A DNA stretch of 43,326 nt from NCBI GenBank assembly GCA_021785125.1, contig JAJYGF010000019.1, positions 1 to 43,326 on the forward strand, read 5' to 3'. This stretch comes from a bacterium (lineage in GTDB: Bacteria; Patescibacteriota; Minisyncoccia; Moranbacterales; UBA2206). The notes below the pieces were generated by a model, which was not told the origin of the DNA, searched no databases, and was given only the letters and a program-made list of their open reading frames with translations. Numbering within the stretch: the first letter of the stretch is position 1; the number at the start of each line of letters is the position of its first letter. Position numbers and translations under genes: made by a program. Shown here piece by piece: positions 5,169-38,061 of the stretch.

Positions 5169-5687
5169 TTAGTTTAATTTTTTAGTATCGTTTAGCTTGG
5201 CCAGTTTCACGGCCTCCTCTTCTTCTTCAGTCAAGGGATGCTTTTCGCTTTTGCCGCCTTGGATGGCTTTGGAATAAACACGGGTGCCATCGCGAGTGTA
5301 TAAGGAGGAAACGACCAGACCGTTATTTTTGCCGTTCAGCATGGCGATGGAAAAACTTTGGTCGCCGCCCACATCATTGAAAGGATTGAACCTGACCATG
5401 GCGAACTTATGCAGGCCGCGATGAGCCAGAACATTGATCTGATTGGAAATGTTGTAAAGTTCCTGGATATCTTTGTCGAGAGCCTTGATGCTGTGCGAAT
5501 GTCCGACGAGGACGTCTTCCATGTTTTTTACACCGTTGCCGGCAAAAAATTCCGCGTTTTTCTGCTGGATTTTTCTTATCTTGATCTGAAGAGCGGTGTT
5601 CCACGCAAGAATGACGATAAACAGGCCCAATGCGATTAGGATAAATGTTCCCTGGTGTGATTTTGCGATTTGGTATATGAAATCCAT
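5169..5687 (-). CDS. DUF4446-like membrane-anchored protein
   Basis: N-terminal TM segment, coiled coil, then VRFNPFNDVGGDQSFSIA..R.YSKAI..G.S...LT.EEEEA, recognised as the DUF4446 pattern. Confidence 0.8.
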   Translation of the reverse strand: MDFIYQIAKSHQGTFILIALGLFIVILAWNTALQIKIRKIQQKNAEFFAGNGVKNMEDVLVGHSHSIKALDKDIQELYNISNQINVLAHRGLHKFAMVRFNPFNDVGGDQSFSIAMLNGKNNGLVVSSLYTRDGTRVYSKAIQGGKSEKHPLTEEEEEAVKLAKLNDTKKLN

Positions 5688-5747
5688 AAGCGCGTCGTGT
5701 TTATCTTAGGCTAGCATCTATGGCGGCTCATGTAAAGGTTAATTATG

Positions 5748-5982
5748 CGGAGGATACAAGATTTTCACCCTGACACCAATTTTGCGGAAGAGGTGGGATT
5801 TGAACCCACGAAGACATTGCTGCCTTACGGCTTTTCGAGAGCCGCGCCTTCAACCACTCGGCCACTCTTCCAAGGCTATTGAATTATCTGTTGAAATCCG
5901 GTGCTGGGGCGGACCTGTGAGGGAATTTTTCTCCCCAACCGCATTTCGAGTGCGGCGCGTTGGGCCACTCTGCCAATCCTCC
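5748..5982 (-). tRNA. Outer, interrupted tRNA-Ser(CGA): 5' part 5982-5911, 3' part 5764-5748, 146-bp insert in the T-loop
   Basis: Acceptor GGAGGAT/ATCCTCC-G. Anticodon arm CCGCA-CTCGAAA-TGCGG. Long variable arm GGGGA/TTCCC. T-stem ACAGG/CTTGT split by the insert. Joined length 89 nt. May be a pseudogene or may be spliced. Confidence 0.75.
5785..5871 (-). tRNA. tRNA-Ser(CGA), intact, nested inside the outer tRNA's insert
   Basis: GGAAGAGTGGCCGAGTGGTTGAAGGCGCGGCT-CTCGAAA-AGCCG, long variable arm, GTGGGTTCAAATCCCACCTCTTCCG. No encoded CCA. Confidence 0.95.
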
Positions 5983-5993
5983 GTCATTTATAT

Positions 5994-6022
5994 AATCTAA
6001 CTTAATTCTGCCAGGTTATCAA
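5994..6022 (-). promoter_or_regulatory. Promoter for the nested tRNA-Ser locus
   Basis: Minus strand TTGATA-17-TAGATT, about 11 nt upstream of the outer tRNA 5' end. Overlaps a one-mismatch DnaA-box-like TTATCAACA. Confidence 0.55.
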
Positions 6023-6093
6023 CAGTTGCGTCAAATTGTGACTTTGAATTTTTTGTAGTAAAATAAATTTAAAAGAAATAGCTTTCGGTTAAA

Positions 6094-7527
6094 ATGAAGG
6101 CCAAAATAAAAATCATAAAAAACAAAAAAACGATCGCCGCCTTTTTTTTGATGGCCGGCATCTTGGTTGTGTCCGGCTGCGGACTCAAACAGCCCAATCC
6201 GAAGCGATACACCATAAATCTTGAAGTTTGGGGGCTTTTTGATGATCAGGACGCTTTCAACAAAATCATCGATACGTACAAAAAATTGGATCCCAATATC
6301 GGGGATATCACATACAAAAAGATGTCGCCGGACACATATAAGCAAGATTTGCTGGACGCTCTGGCCAGCGGAAACGGTCCGGATATATTTTTGATCCAGA
6401 ATCATTGGCTGCCGGGCTTCCAAGACAAGATTTCGCCTGCTCCGCCTTTATATCTCAACGAACAGACATACCGCAATGAGTTTGTGGATGTGGCGGCGCA
6501 AGATTTTATAAGCCAAGGCCAGGTTTATGCCGTTCCGCTTACCGTCAATTCTTTGGCTCTCTACTATAATAAAGATCTTTTCAACGCGGCCGGCATAACG
6601 GGCCCGCCGGCAAATTGGGACGAATTTGTGTCAGACGCGAAAAAGCTGACGGTTATCGGCGGCGATGGGCAGATTGCGCAATCCGGCGCGGCCTTGGGCA
6701 CCACCGCCAATATCAACCGTCCGACGGACATACTCAATCTTTTGATGCTACAAGGCGGCACACAGATGACGGATCCGACGACGGGACGAGCCACTTTTGA
6801 TCAGGTTACCAAGCTAAGTGATGGCAGTAGCTCCGCTCCGGGTCAGAACGCGCTGAATTTCTACACCCAATTCGCCAATCGCAATTCCTCTTTCTATTCC
6901 TGGAATCCAAGCATGCATTATTCGATCGACGCTTTTGCCGAGGGTAATTTGGCCATGATGTTCAACTATTCCTGGCAGGAGCCGGTGATTGAAAGCAAGG
7001 CGCCGAAACTTAATTATGGCGTGGCGCCGGTGCCGCAGTTTGCCGGTTCGGCTCCGGTCAACTTTCCGAATTATTGGGCGTTCGCCGTGGCCAAGAACAA
7101 GACTCCGGATACGCACCAGATGAATCCGTCCCAAGCGGCCATAGTCACCAACGATGTGCGCGTGGCCGAAGCTTGGCGGTTCCTGACATATCTGACGACA
7201 AAGCCGCAGCAAAACCAGACCGTTTCGACCGGCGTGACGGGTTCCGGACAGACTGCGAATCTGAATTTTGATCCGGCGGCCGACTATCTCACAAAAACAA
7301 GCCAGCCGGCGGCCAGGAGGGATCTTATCGACCGGCAAAAGACCGATCCAAATTTGGGGGTTTTTGCGGAAGGCAATCTGATAGACAAAGATTGGACGCA
7401 ATCCGATCCGGACGCCATCGAGAATATTTTTATCAATATGATAAATCAGGTGGACAGCGGACAATCCGGCATCCAAGACGCGATCCAATCCGCGGCGGCG
7501 AGCGTCAGCCAGATTTCGATGCGCTAA
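6094..7527 (+). CDS. Extracellular solute-binding lipoprotein (SBP family 1, sugar-binding type)
   Basis: Lipobox LVVSGC; ALASGNGPDIF, YAVPLTVNSLALYYNKDLF, PPANWDEF and FAEGNLAM motifs. No permease or ATPase nearby. Confidence 0.9.
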   Translation: MKAKIKIIKNKKTIAAFFLMAGILVVSGCGLKQPNPKRYTINLEVWGLFDDQDAFNKIIDTYKKLDPNIGDITYKKMSPDTYKQDLLDALASGNGPDIFLIQNHWLPGFQDKISPAPPLYLNEQTYRNEFVDVAAQDFISQGQVYAVPLTVNSLALYYNKDLFNAAGITGPPANWDEFVSDAKKLTVIGGDGQIAQSGAALGTTANINRPTDILNLLMLQGGTQMTDPTTGRATFDQVTKLSDGSSSAPGQNALNFYTQFANRNSSFYSWNPSMHYSIDAFAEGNLAMMFNYSWQEPVIESKAPKLNYGVAPVPQFAGSAPVNFPNYWAFAVAKNKTPDTHQMNPSQAAIVTNDVRVAEAWRFLTYLTTKPQQNQTVSTGVTGSGQTANLNFDPAADYLTKTSQPAARRDLIDRQKTDPNLGVFAEGNLIDKDWTQSDPDAIENIFINMINQVDSGQSGIQDAIQSAAASVSQISMR

Positions 7528-21594: not shown

Positions 21595-21666
21595 GCGGGT
21601 ATCGTATAGCGGCTATTATGCGACCCTTCCAAGGTTGAGATGGGGGTCCGACTCCCCCTACCCGCT
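21595..21666 (+). tRNA. tRNA-Gly(TCC)
   Basis: Acceptor GCGGGTA/TACCCGC-T, anticodon arm CGACC-CTTCCAA-GGTTG, T-loop TCCGACT. Confidence 0.92.
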
Positions 21667-21671
21667 CAAAA

Positions 21672-21726: not shown

Positions 21727-21797
21727 GCGAGATTAGTACAGTGGCAGTACGCTTGCTTCCCAAGCAAGAGACGCGAGTCCGATTCTCGTATCTCGCT
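21727..21797 (+). tRNA. tRNA-Gly(CCC)
   Basis: Acceptor GCGAGAT/ATCTCGC-T, anticodon arm CTTGC-TTCCCAA-GCAAG, T-loop TCCGATT. Confidence 0.92.
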
Positions 21798-21819
21798 CCT
21801 TAATTATTTATTGAATAAC

Positions 21820-37309: not shown

Positions 37310-37507
37310 ATGAACATGATTAAAAAAATCCAACACTGGTTATGGTGGAAGTATCAAGTGAATATCCCAACAAGTCCAATCGTAATGCTTTTAATCATAG
37401 TTGTCCTCCTTGTTGTTTTAGTTATTTCTATTTTAATGAACCAAAGTGGCGGCAATTTTTCCGGACAAGCATCCGTAGCGCCTCCATCAGCTATTTTAAT
37501 TCGATGA
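37310..37507 (+). CDS. Small single-TM hypothetical protein
   Basis: IVMLLIIVVLLVVLVISILM segment. ATGA overlap with the next gene. Confidence 0.55.
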   Translation: MNMIKKIQHWLWWKYQVNIPTSPIVMLLIIVVLLVVLVISILMNQSGGNFSGQASVAPPSAILIR

Positions 37508-38061
37508 TTTATCCGGTTTGTCAAAACAGAAAAGGATTCACTCTCATTGAATTGTTGATGGTGATAGCAATCATCGGAATCTTGGCATCGATAATAATCG
37601 TAAATTTGAGCGGAGGCAAGAATAGGGCTGAGGATGCTTCCATAATTTCTTCGGCGGAATCAATTATGAAAGCGGCGCAGAATGATATAATATCATCTCC
37701 CCAGGATGCCGGAATGTGGAGCATTGGATGGTTGACCAACGTTTCTGACTGTTCGACCAAAATTTCATCGAACATACCCAATTATTCTCAACTGGTTGCA
37801 ACGTGCCAGTCCATAATCGATGCTACCGGATCAGCCTCATTGGCAGGCTATCCAAACTACAAGATGTTAATTACTCCTCCGCCCAATGGCACTAATGGAG
37901 GTTTGTCAATAATGGTTGTGTTGCCTTATGCTCAAAGATTTTATTGTATCGGATCAAACGGGGGATCTTCCAAAATGACATTGCTTGATTCGACTGGCTG
38001 TGGCACTAGCCTAAGCTGGCATTGTCCAGGATGTGCAAATGATCCCAGCGGCGGATTTTAA
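37504..38061 (+). CDS. Type IV pilin / type II secretion pseudopilin with N-methylation motif
   Basis: KG^FTLIELLMVIAIIGILASIIIVNL and C-terminal YCIGSNG Cys pattern. Start at ATG 37504. Confidence 0.9.
   Translation: MIYPVCQNRKGFTLIELLMVIAIIGILASIIIVNLSGGKNRAEDASIISSAESIMKAAQNDIISSPQDAGMWSIGWLTNVSDCSTKISSNIPNYSQLVATCQSIIDATGSASLAGYPNYKMLITPPPNGTNGGLSIMVVLPYAQRFYCIGSNGGSSKMTLLDSTGCGTSLSWHCPGCANDPSGGF

What the first reader, a model, noticed from the sequence alone, without database searches (positions are those of the whole stretch)
5748..5982. A tRNA inside a tRNA: tRNA-Ser(CGA) split in its T-loop by a paired-end insert carrying a second, intact tRNA-Ser(CGA)
Seen on the minus strand: GGAGGATTGGCAGAGTGGCCCAACGCG-CCGCA-CTCGAAA-TGCGG-TTGGGGAGAAAAATTCCCTC-ACAGGTCC [146-bp insert] AAATCTTGT-ATCCTCC-G. 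Removing the insert gives an 89-nt class II tRNA with a perfect 7-bp acceptor stem, perfect anticodon stem, G discriminator and a 7-nt T-loop. That loop would read TCCAAAT or TCCGAAT; TCC T-loops also occur in both tRNA-Gly genes here. The only blemishes are one D-stem mismatch and one T-stem G-U pair. The insert ends pair with each other (CGCCC-CA-GCACCGG-A-TTT with AAA-A-TTGGTGT-CA-GGGTG), and their G-U pairs work only on the transcribed strand. Between them is a complete tRNA-Ser with the same anticodon but a different sequence (5785-5871). A promoter precedes the outer gene. This is not the usual integrase att pattern, because the target is not restored and no 3' end is duplicated. The insert also has no room for a group I or II intron core. 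Inference: either (a) a mini mobile element that disrupts a tRNA and compensates with its own isoacceptor, or (b) a new protein-processed tRNA intron yielding two tRNAs from one transcript. I know of no described bacterial example.
Basis: partly seen in the sequence, partly recalled or inferred. Interest (0 to 1): 0.92.

Follow-up and report, generated by a model that had tools for sequence, protein, structure and literature searches.

The report
Inserted cassette replaces a tRNA gene
A 146-base cassette with palindromic ends and its own serine tRNA sits inside the resident serine tRNA gene of a tiny CPR bacterium, apparently disabling the old gene while replacing it, and similar cassettes interrupt many tRNA genes across that bacterial group.

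Summary
On the minus strand, 5982-5911 plus 5764-5748 form a complete class II tRNA-Ser(CGA), which I call type B. It is split in its T-loop by 146 bp (5910-5765) that hold an intact, different tRNA-Ser(CGA), type A (5871-5785), between two arms that pair.

Relatives settle the interpretation. The same syntenic slot (SBP | tRNA-Ser(CGA) | DUF4446-IF2) holds an uninterrupted type B in some genera and type A in others, with relics of the other type. In two genomes the nesting is reversed.

The arms belong to a family of small palindromic elements (CCCCGCACC...GGTGCGGGG) found in several CPR lineages. Copies without a tRNA often have 4-bp flanking repeats, and two lie in 16S rRNA genes. Copies with a tRNA interrupt loops of tRNA genes. 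In 22 of 22 nests I read, the inner tRNA has the same identity and orientation as the outer one. Older outer halves are decayed, truncated or hit again.

Model (b), a protein-spliced intron, is not: no EndA, no bulge-helix-bulge motif, no intron core. The mobilising enzyme is unknown and the T-loop junction is not a simple target duplication. Five literature searches found no description.

The parts
5994..6022 (-). Promoter-like site TTGATA-17 nt-TAGATT, 11 nt upstream of the outer tRNA 5' end. It is probably the promoter that now drives the inner tRNA.
   Evidence: 9 of 12 consensus matches. 4 promoter-like sites were found in the region against a mean of 1.0 in shuffles. None lies between the left arm and the inner tRNA.
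5911..5982 (-). 5' part (72 nt) of the resident tRNA-Ser(CGA), type B (GGAGGAT...), up to the third T-loop base. I read it as a disrupted relic that now serves as leader of the inner tRNA transcript.
   Evidence: 87-89% identical to the 5' parts of seven tRNA-Ser(CGA) genes that ARAGORN calls uninterrupted. Sub-threshold Rfam tRNA hit of 17.3 bits at 5919-5982.
5894..5910 (-). Left arm of the insert (GCCCCAGCACCGGATTT). It is a diverged copy of the family arm GCCCC(N)GCACCAAATTT.
   Evidence: pairs with the right arm. Family arms are seen. The variant with one extra base after CCCC also occurs in L040, L053 and L106.
5872..5893 (-). AT-rich spacer of 22 nt between the left arm and the inner tRNA.
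   Evidence: Spacers in other copies vary from 4 to about 55 nt and are not alike.
5785..5871 (-). Intact inner tRNA-Ser(CGA), type A (GGAAGAG...). It is the only intact tRNA-Ser(CGA) of the genome and the cargo of the insert.
   Evidence: ARAGORN; Rfam 59.5 bits; one Ser-CGA among 43 tRNAs. 84-94% identical to type A genes of 11 relatives.
5766..5783 (-). Right arm of the insert (AAAATTGGTGTCAGGGTG). It is a diverged copy of the family arm AAATTTGGTGCGGGGTG.
   Evidence: the pattern hit includes this site. The closest variant is GGTGCTGGGGTG in G153.
5748..5765 (-). 3' part of resident type B: AAAAT (rest of the T-loop), CTTGT (T-stem 3' strand), ATCCTCC (acceptor 3' strand) and G (discriminator). 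The exact insert boundary is ambiguous by one base (5764/5765).
   Evidence: The junction motif ...GGGTG|AAAAT|T-stem is shared with 12 other places in the order.

Best explanation
The outer gene (type B) is the resident tRNA-Ser(CGA) of this locus. A 146-bp cassette landed in the DNA that encodes its T-loop. The cassette has two arms that are inverted repeats of each other (family consensus CCCCGCACCAAA...TTTGGTGCGGGG) around a foreign, complete tRNA-Ser(CGA) of another lineage (type A).

The insertion breaks the resident gene, and the cargo tRNA takes over its job. The cargo is most likely transcribed from the resident promoter, with the old 5' half as leader, and released by the usual 5' and 3' tRNA processing. 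The outer halves are left as a relic.

The cassette belongs to a family of small palindromic, MITE-like elements that I saw in records titled as five CPR lineages. Copies without cargo lie between genes and in 16S rRNA genes. Copies with a tRNA cargo are found in loops of the cognate tRNA gene. My inference for this pattern is that only there does a hit on a single-copy essential tRNA gene go unpunished.

Shown: the anatomy, the empty sites, the shared arms, the cognate nesting and the decay of older outer halves. Inferred: that the DNA is or was mobile as a unit, the use of the outer promoter, and selection as the reason for cognate pairing. Unknown: the enzyme and the chemistry of insertion.
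For: (1) Empty sites. Seven relatives carry an uninterrupted type B (L013-L019). Five of them (L013, L014, L015, L017, L018) have both the SBP and DUF4446 neighbours that flank the window locus (Pfam names).

(2) Alternation. At the same slot other genera carry type A only (L002-L012). Some keep relics of the other type: a 14-nt B 5' fragment before A in G034 and an A 5' fragment before B in G030. In G007 and G046, A is split in its anticodon loop by an intact B between other paired arms.

(3) Same arms elsewhere. The right-junction pattern hits 13 places in 12 of 319 genomes of the order, against 2 for the reversed control. An 18-mer of it hits 44 stretches in the species collection. I read 18 of them as tRNA-linked, and 14 of those 18 are titled as CPR lineages.

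(4) Cognate nesting. In 22 of 22 nests I read (Ser-CGA, Lys-TTT, Lys-CTT, Asn, Gln-CTG, Gln-TTG, Arg-GCG, Arg-CCT, Ile, Val, Ala, Glu) the inner and outer tRNA have the same identity and orientation. In 13 the outer anticodon is readable and the same. ARAGORN confirms a junction-spanning cognate outer gene after in-silico removal in 6.

(5) Within one genus, G271 has the intact Lys(TTT) gene and G021 has the same gene filled.

(6) Decay. Outer halves elsewhere lack 5' parts, carry further hairpin insertions or have non-matching halves (G269, G299, G024, G036, L040, L050, L059, L074).

(7) Repeat family. The 12-mer arm occurs 60 times in 30 of 71 family genomes against 12 for the control. 8 of 15 solo copies read have identical 4-bp flanking repeats. 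Two sit at one 16S rRNA site.

(8) Contigs of 4 runs support the arrangement.
Against: No transposase or recombinase is tied to the arms. 40 fetched regions around arm hits held only pairs 20-150 nt apart and no kb-sized copy. G000 has no DDE_Tnp_1 and no IS110 transposase. Its two Y1 transposase genes are flanked by unrelated hairpins.

The T-loop junction is not a target-site duplication. In the genus-level pair, TTCG|AAT becomes CACG[element]TGAA|AAT. Simple cut-and-paste with a 4-bp repeat therefore does not explain the tRNA copies.

How the cassettes acquire tRNAs that match their target is not shown. Selection on a loop-seeking element is my inference.

In G000 itself the outer halves are not visibly decayed. 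They differ at 4 of 70 positions invariant in seven intact type B genes, while those genes differ at 0-4. All stems still pair. The arms, by contrast, differ from the nearest family variants at about 5 of 36 positions. This is compatible with a recent event but also with some constraint on the outer halves.

The arms occur once in G000, plus one related element on C8. Mobility inside this genome is therefore not shown. No RNA data exist for this organism.
Confidence: 0.75

Rival explanations
1. RNA-level intron. One transcript yields two tRNAs. The inner one is cut out by RNase P and RNase Z or another nuclease, and the outer halves, held together by the arm helix, are trimmed and ligated (for example by RtcB) into a second tRNA-Ser(CGA).
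For: The arms extend the outer T-stem into a continuous helix in the predicted fold. RtcB is encoded at C14:60516-61877 (249.5 bits). The outer halves of G000 are not decayed (4 of 70 invariant positions). The joined exons pass default ARAGORN. TCC T-loops are used by 8 of 43 tRNAs here. The G-T wobble in the arm (CG CCCC / GGGG TG) is kept in most T-loop copies and pairs only on the sense strand.
Against: There is no splicing endonuclease: PF01974 finds nothing in G000 while the control finds it in 4 archaea. The junction is a 2-nt/5-nt asymmetric loop, not a bulge-helix-bulge. A second tRNA with the same anticodon has no evident use.

In other genomes the outer halves are truncated, mismatched (G269: 5' GGAAGCG with 3' ACTCTCC), or broken again by further insertions. 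That is not expected of exons.

Many outer T-loops would read CAC+AAAT after removal, losing T54 and U55.
Confidence: 0.05
2. Remnant of a classical integrase-mediated island. A larger element with a tyrosine integrase and its own tRNA-Ser integrated at the T-loop of type B. It was later reduced by deletion to the tRNA and the two core sites.
For: From memory (Williams 2002, not read here), T-loops and anticodon loops are the usual crossover sublocations of tRNA-targeting integrases. Many loci show only an intact tRNA followed by the right arm and a 3' relic, which looks like attL...attR (G299, G036, G039, L052, L077). G000 has such a relic after tRNA-Tyr, and a 21-nt 3' direct repeat 1.6 kb after tRNA-Glu.
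Against: No large copy was seen among about 60 arm-bearing loci. The resident 3' end is not duplicated or restored in the nests. The sequences between stem and arm are 4 nt on the left and 7 nt on the right, so there is no common overlap. No integrase lies beside any nest read. The only tyrosine recombinase gene of G000 is on another contig. 4 exact hits of the junction motif in viral contigs have no tRNA context. Independent deletions would have to spare both arms each time.
Confidence: 0.08
3. Local rearrangement without any mobile element. A tandem pair of type B and type A genes was scrambled by slippage or recombination at hairpins.
For: G046 has several tRNA-Ser(CGA) genes and fragments in one 600-bp stretch. 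Palindromes promote rearrangements, and the G007 nest is inverted relative to its flanking genes.
Against: The same arm sequence and the same breakpoint (...GGGGTG|AAAAT|T-stem) recur in tRNAs of many identities and in five named CPR lineages. Inner and outer genes belong to lineages that are each the sole copy elsewhere. One simple rearrangement cannot move a 17-nt 3' end behind a downstream gene.
Confidence: 0.04
4. Assembly artefact: a chimeric path through tRNA-Ser genes of different strains in a metagenome.
For: The genome is a 24-contig, metagenome-like assembly. Contigs in the runs break inside conserved tRNA words, and other organisms' tRNA-Ser contexts appear as loose ends.
Against: Single contigs with 0 differences span outer 3' end, right arm, inner tRNA, left arm and 47 nt of the outer 5' half (X1 record 1). 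Independent samples of the study repeat both junctions. Equivalent nests occur in many unrelated assemblies.
Confidence: 0.01

Closest known systems
Miniature inverted-repeat transposable elements (MITEs) and REPIN-like palindromic repeats of bacteria
   Same: Short length (about 40-230 bp). Terminal inverted repeats of 10-16 bp that are conserved while the interior varies. Several copies per genome in relatives. Identical 4-bp flanking repeats at 8 of 15 solo copies read. No gene for a transposase inside.
   Different: Some copies carry a complete tRNA gene and lie inside the cognate tRNA gene. At the T-loop sites there is no target duplication. No autonomous partner was found. The Y1 transposase genes of G000 are flanked by other hairpins, so a RAYT/REPIN link is not supported.
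Intervening sequences (IVS) of bacterial rRNA genes
   Same: Palindromic inserts in loops of genes for structured RNA. IVS are thought to spread horizontally and are common in reduced genomes (passage of the introduction of PMC11270868). Two elements with these same arms sit in 16S rRNA genes at one site (L079, L087).
   Different: IVS are tolerated because the rRNA works in pieces after RNase III cleavage. A tRNA split in its T-loop has no such route, and here function is rescued by a second gene inside the insert. The paper on insertions in CPR rRNA genes does not mention tRNA (0 occurrences in its main text).
Genomic islands and prophages that integrate into tRNA genes
   Same: The target is a tRNA gene at the T-loop or anticodon loop. 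3' relics of tRNA genes are left downstream. The tRNA function is preserved after insertion.
   Different: Islands restore the gene by carrying a copy of its 3' part and are bounded by direct repeats. Here the resident gene stays broken, a whole substitute gene is supplied, the ends are inverted repeats, the size is 0.1-0.25 kb and no integrase is present.
Archaeal disrupted tRNA genes (introns at non-canonical positions, split tRNAs, transposing tRNA introns)
   Same: Inserts sit in several loops of tRNA genes with flanking sequences that pair. There is evidence there that tRNA introns move between tRNA genes (passage on Fujishima et al. 2010 in PMC10714607).
   Different: Those depend on the bulge-helix-bulge motif and the EndA splicing endonuclease, and the interrupted gene is the functional one. 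Here EndA is absent, the motif is absent, and the interrupted gene decays while the insert carries the working tRNA.
Group I introns in bacterial tRNA genes
   Same: An interrupted tRNA gene in a bacterium. This very genome has one: the only tRNA-Phe(GAA), at C4:5653-5966, has a 241-nt insert that matches Intron_gpI at 66.8 bits.
   Different: The Ser insert has no ribozyme core (no RF00028 match). It lies in the T-loop, not the anticodon loop, and is mostly another tRNA.

Membership tests
Protein-spliced tRNA intron (archaeal/eukaryal type) | Bulge-helix-bulge (or relaxed) motif at both exon-intron junctions | tested here: not met
   In sequence and fold, the T-stem is followed by 2 unpaired nt on the 5' side and 5 on the 3' side, then a 5-bp helix, a 2x2 internal loop and a further 5-bp helix. 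There are no 3-nt bulges 4 bp apart.
Protein-spliced tRNA intron (archaeal/eukaryal type) | tRNA splicing endonuclease (EndA, PF01974) in the genome | tested here: not met
   0 matches in G000 (listed as 100% complete). The control search finds the family in 4 archaeal genomes.
Protein-spliced tRNA intron (archaeal/eukaryal type) | RNA ligase able to join the halves (RtcB) | tested here: met
   PF01139 at 249.5 bits, C14:60516-61877. RtcB is common in bacteria (10 of 14 control genomes), so it is weak evidence.
Protein-spliced tRNA intron (archaeal/eukaryal type) | The interrupted gene is the functional copy and its exons are conserved | tested here: not met
   Outer halves in other genomes are truncated, mismatched or re-interrupted. 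In G000 alone the test is inconclusive (4 of 70 invariant positions changed).
Group I intron | Catalytic core recognisable by the Rfam model RF00028 | tested here: not met
   No match in the window at gathering threshold or in 5650-6100 at E up to 1. The same tool finds RF00028 in the tRNA-Phe gene of this genome.
Integrase-type island at a tRNA gene | Direct repeat of the tRNA 3' part at both ends, with the gene restored at one end | tested here: not met
   The outer 5' part is followed by the arm, not by a tRNA 3' part. The 17-nt 3' end occurs once.
Integrase-type island at a tRNA gene | Integrase gene within the inserted DNA | tested here: not met
   The insert is 146 bp. The neighbours are DUF4446, IF-2 and a solute-binding protein. 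The only PF00589 hit is on contig C4.
MITE (non-autonomous DDE transposon) | Terminal inverted repeats shared by many short copies | tested here: met
   The arm 12-mer occurs 60 times in 30 of 71 family genomes against 12 for the control. Arm pairs are 20-150 nt apart.
MITE (non-autonomous DDE transposon) | Target-site duplication of fixed length | tested here: inconclusive
   8 of 15 solo copies read have identical 4-bp repeats (TTTA, TGAA, TTGA, TAAA). T-loop copies do not: the left side is NNNG and the right side TGAA, and in the empty versus filled pair TTCG is replaced.
MITE (non-autonomous DDE transposon) | Autonomous relative with the same ends and a transposase | tested here: not met
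   None in 40 fetched regions or in the 8-kb loci. No PF01609 or PF01548 in G000. This is a small sample, so absence is not shown.
REPIN mobilised by a RAYT (Y1 transposase) | A single-copy Y1 transposase gene flanked by the same repeats | tested here: not met
   Two PF01797 genes lie on C14. Their flanking hairpins (CCTCGCGGCTTGCCGCGAG and TAGGACGGTCCTA) are unrelated to the arms.

The most novel reading that the evidence does not exclude
CPR bacteria may harbour a so far undescribed class of site-directed cassettes that overwrite tRNA genes. Each would be a palindrome-armed unit that enters a loop-coding site of a tRNA gene and brings a foreign allele of the same tRNA. tRNA genes would then be replaced horizontally again and again (type A over B in G000, B over A in G007 and G046, three successive Lys-TTT types in G271/G021/G024/G299). 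This would need an enzyme and an insertion chemistry that fit neither transposon target duplication nor integrase crossover.
Probability: 0.45. Interest if true: 0.85.

Novelty: new variant of a known kind. Interest (0 to 1): 0.78.

Why it matters
tRNA genes are usually treated as stable and vertically inherited. Interrupted tRNA genes in bacteria are known as group I or II intron hosts or as integration sites that get repaired.

Here a tRNA gene is broken for good and replaced on the spot by a foreign copy that travels inside the disrupting DNA. The same thing is seen for at least twelve tRNA species, in records titled as five CPR lineages.

If this holds, it gives a mechanism for horizontal turnover of tRNA genes in organisms with single-copy tRNA sets. 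It would explain tRNA fragments and missing or odd tRNAs in CPR annotations. It would show a selfish element that escapes the cost of hitting an essential gene by carrying a spare. It also points to an unknown enzyme that acts at loop-coding sites of genes for structured RNA.

There is a practical warning too: tRNA finders report only the inner gene, so such nests go unseen.

Tried and rejected
- **Splicing machinery.** I looked for EndA in G000 and found none. RtcB is present but common in bacteria.
- **Candidate mobilising enzymes in G000.** There is one tyrosine recombinase gene, on another contig. Two Y1 transposase genes are flanked by unrelated hairpins. There is no DDE_Tnp_1 and no IS110 transposase. 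None could be tied to the arms.
- **Arm copies within G000.** Short-word BLAST and regular expressions found only the locus itself, one related palindromic element on C8 and one 13-nt chance-level match on C18.
- **kb-sized autonomous copies.** I fetched 4.5 kb next to 20 unpaired arm hits. All but six had a diverged partner within about 150 nt, and none bracketed an ORF.
- **Viral contigs.** The 16-mer gave 4 hits without tRNA context. A 15-mer of the left junction gave at least 120 hits that I did not read and take for chance hits of a short G+C-rich word. It was uninformative.
- **RNA evidence.** No RNA holder was listed for the locus, so expression and processing could not be examined.
- **Simple 4-bp target duplication at the T-loop.** Rejected on the G271/G021 pair.
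- **Conservative integrase crossover in the 7-nt loop.** Rejected because the two junction spacers are 4 and 7 nt and are unlike each other.
- **Homologous recombination through the outer halves as the spreading route.** The right-hand homology would be only about 3 nt, because the T-stem and acceptor strands are those of the resident type.
- **Resemblance of the arm to the acceptor stem of initiator tRNA.** GCGGGGTG... / ...CCCCGCA was noted but I treat it as unproven.
- **Literature.** Five full-text searches found nothing on a tRNA inside a tRNA gene in bacteria. I read passages of PMC10714607 and PMC11270868. All other papers I saw only as search listings. Supplementary files were not opened. 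The supplementary tables of PMC11270868 might list short rRNA inserts with these arms.
Full report
**The object**

The window is contig C6 of a 916,793-bp, 24-contig genome. The genome is about 44% G+C and ARAGORN finds 43 tRNA genes.

On the minus strand, 5982-5911 reads as the first 72 nt of a class II tRNA-Ser(CGA): acceptor strand GGAGGAT, D-arm, anticodon arm with CGA, long variable arm and T-stem strand ACAGG. I call this gene type B. After 146 further bases, 5764-5748 reads AAAT-CTTGT-ATCCTCC-G, which is the rest of the T-loop, the T-stem, the acceptor strand and the discriminator.

Between these parts lie:
- a left arm (5910-5894);
- a 22-nt spacer;
- an intact, different tRNA-Ser(CGA), type A (5871-5785; ARAGORN, Rfam 59.5 bits);
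- a right arm (5783-5766).

I removed the insert in silico at five alternative boundaries. Default ARAGORN calls a tRNA-Ser(cga) in 5 of 5. The required 3' word is found in 31 of 200,000 random 300-nt windows of the genome.

A promoter-like TTGATA-17-TAGATT precedes the outer gene, and none is found before the inner one. Contigs of four runs from one study cover the locus. They span the right junction in 4 of 4 runs and the left junction in 3 of 4, without differences.

**Empty sites and alternation**

A DNA search of 61 genomes (G000 and 60 relatives) separated two lineages of tRNA-Ser(CGA). Eleven relatives match the inner gene at 84-94% identity. Seven match the outer 5' part at 87-89%.

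ARAGORN shows that those seven carry an uninterrupted type B gene (L013-L019; sequences). The window locus lies between a solute-binding protein gene and DUF4446-IF2. Of 19 relatives' loci, 13 have the DUF4446 neighbour and 14 the SBP neighbour. This holds whether the locus carries type A or type B.

So one conserved slot holds B in some genera and A in others, and traces of the loser remain:
- a 14-nt B 5' fragment before A in G034;
- an A 5' fragment before B in G030;
- in G007 and G046, the reverse nest: A split in its anticodon loop by an intact B that lies between another pair of complementary arms (CCCCGTAGAAAAGC ... TTTCTTACGGGG).

G046 is a nest of at least four levels. It includes a T-loop break of type A with the same arm as in the window.

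**The arms are a family**

The right junction (arm plus AAAATC) was used as a pattern. It hits 13 places in 12 of 319 genomes of the order, against 2 for the reversed control. At these places the arms ...GCCCCGCACCAAA... and ...TTTGGTGCGGGGTG|AAAAT... interrupt T-loops of tRNA genes for Ser(CGA), Lys(TTT), Asn(GTT) and Tyr, or follow an intact tRNA as a right arm plus 3' relic.

An exact 18-mer of the junction occurs in 44 stretches of the 185,579-species collection. My own estimate of the chance expectation is about 17. I read 18 of the 44 as tRNA-linked. Of those 18:
- 14 are in records titled Moranbacteria/Moraniibacteriota, Saccharibacteria, Berkelbacteria, Portnoybacteria, Uhrbacteria or Patescibacteria group;
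- 2 are titled 'bacterium';
- 2 are titled 'uncultured Gammaproteobacteria'.

The 12-mer CCCCGCACCAAA occurs 60 times in 30 of 71 genomes of the family, against 12 for the control. I fetched 40 of these places. Arm pairs are always 20-150 nt apart.

**Copies with and without a tRNA**

Copies without a tRNA lie between genes. In 8 of 15 that I read they are flanked by identical 4-bp words: TTTA, TGAA, TTGA or TAAA. Two lie at the same site of a 16S rRNA gene, with TTTA on both sides in one and TAAA/CAAA in the other (L087, L079). This is the behaviour of a MITE.

Copies with a tRNA lie in loop-coding parts of tRNA genes. Most are in the T-loop. Others are in the anticodon loop or stem (L004, L083, L086, L096, and the second insert of L074) or the D-loop (L082).

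I read 22 nests in 21 genomes. In 22 of 22 the inner and outer genes are co-oriented and none is of a different identity. In 13 the outer anticodon is readable and equal to the inner one. In 9 the anticodon is destroyed or decayed, and identity rests on the remaining sequence. ARAGORN confirms a junction-spanning cognate outer gene after in-silico removal in 6.

**Relic or exon**

Within one genus, G271 has the intact Lys(TTT) gene (GGGTCGT type). G021 has the same gene filled, with no other change in its 66 remaining bases. This is a recent event.

In a neighbouring genus:
- G024 keeps the inner type of G021 plus only the right arm and the 3' relic of the GGGTCGT type;
- G299 carries a third type plus a 3' relic of the second.

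Elsewhere, outer halves lack their 5' part, have non-matching ends (G269), or carry further hairpins or a second empty element (L040, L050, L059, L074, G036). That is how pseudogenes behave, not exons.

G000 has no EndA. The junction has no bulge-helix-bulge geometry. The insert has no group I core, while the genome's only tRNA-Phe does contain a group I intron. RtcB is present but is common in bacteria.

Against my reading: in G000 the outer halves differ at only 4 of 70 positions invariant in intact type B genes, which themselves differ at 0-4. The window alone therefore cannot tell a recent relic from a constrained sequence.

**How it works**

Best reading (0.75): a cassette of arms plus tRNA entered the resident gene. 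The cargo is transcribed from the resident promoter and processed as any tRNA. The outer halves are junk.

The strict cognate pairing is most simply explained by selection. An element that tends to land in loop-coding sites of genes for structured RNA kills the cell unless it carries the very tRNA that it breaks. Already dead outer genes can collect further hits, as observed. This step is inference.

The chemistry is open. At T-loops the four bases left of the element are the first four loop bases, often changed (TTCG, TCCG, CACG, CCTG and others). The four on the right are nearly always TGAA, followed by the resident's own last three loop bases: AAT, or ATT in tRNA-Arg(CCT). That fits neither a 4-bp duplication nor a crossover in a common overlap.

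No enzyme could be linked to the arms and no large copy was found.

**Comparison and novelty**

The element works like a MITE or an rRNA intervening sequence in form. It works like a tRNA-targeting island in that function is preserved. But it fails defining features of islands, protein-spliced introns and group I introns (see Membership tests). As a MITE it lacks a known partner, and its tRNA copies lack the target duplication.

Five full-text searches found no description of a tRNA gene nested in a tRNA gene in bacteria. The survey of insertions in CPR rRNA genes does not mention tRNA in its main text.

I file it as a new variant of a known kind: a palindromic mini-element with a new cargo and a new consequence. 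Interest is high because the phenomenon is recurrent, spans several CPR lineages, touches essential genes and points to an unknown enzyme.

Noticed in passing
G000 contig C4:5653-5966 (outside the window; locus L122 406-645): The only tRNA-Phe(GAA) gene of the genome is interrupted in its anticodon loop by 241 nt that match the group I intron model (RF00028, 66.8 bits against a gathering score of 50). Default ARAGORN misses the gene.
   Followed up: partly
window 21595-21667 and 21727-21799, and six further tRNAs on other contigs of G000: 8 of 43 tRNAs have a T-loop that starts TCC instead of TTC, that is C at position 55 where U (pseudouridine) is almost universal. They are Gly x3, His, Gln(TTG), Lys(TTT), Arg(GCG) and Arg(CCG).
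   Followed up: partly
G000 contig C21:10657-10929 (outside the window): The intact tRNA-Tyr(GTA) is followed after 172 nt by a second copy of its last 17 bases preceded by AAAAT (AAAATCCCTCCCTGCCCA). This is the same T-loop breakpoint as in the Ser nest. The identical relic follows the family right arm in G159 (L028).
   Followed up: partly
G000 contig C5:51174-52841 (outside the window): The last 21 bases of tRNA-Glu(TTC), from the first T-loop base on, are repeated about 1.6 kb downstream in the same orientation. This is the classical pattern of a small integrated element.
   Followed up: no
G000 contig C8, about 37505-37636 (outside the window): An intergenic palindromic element of the same family (CCCCGCACTAACTTTCTGAT ... 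ATCAGAAAGTTAGTGCGGGG) without a tRNA, flanked by TGAA on both sides.
   Followed up: partly
L079 461-539 and L087 454-534 (two genera of the family): Elements with these arms lie inside 16S rRNA genes at one and the same site, flanked by TTTA on both sides in L087 and by TAAA/CAAA in L079. They would add a hairpin to the rRNA or be cut out.
   Followed up: partly
L018 (G046), about 1040-1625: A nest of tRNA-Ser(CGA) genes at least four levels deep: type A split twice, with an intact B in its anticodon loop and, in its T-loop, a further split gene that contains another intact gene, plus more 3' relics downstream.
   Followed up: partly
L013 (G007): The whole tRNA-Ser nest is inverted relative to the flanking SBP and DUF4446 genes when compared with the other loci.
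   Followed up: no
G000 contig C14:24311-24800 and 93682-94317 (outside the window): Two Y1 (IS200/RAYT-like) transposase genes, each flanked by its own pair of hairpins that are unrelated to the tRNA-cassette arms.
   Followed up: partly
L089, L097, L098 and five other loci with arm pairs about 103 nt apart: One arm-bounded element has a conserved interior and conserved flanks in several genera. No Rfam family matches at gathering threshold. It may be an inherited insert in an unrecognised RNA gene.
   Followed up: no
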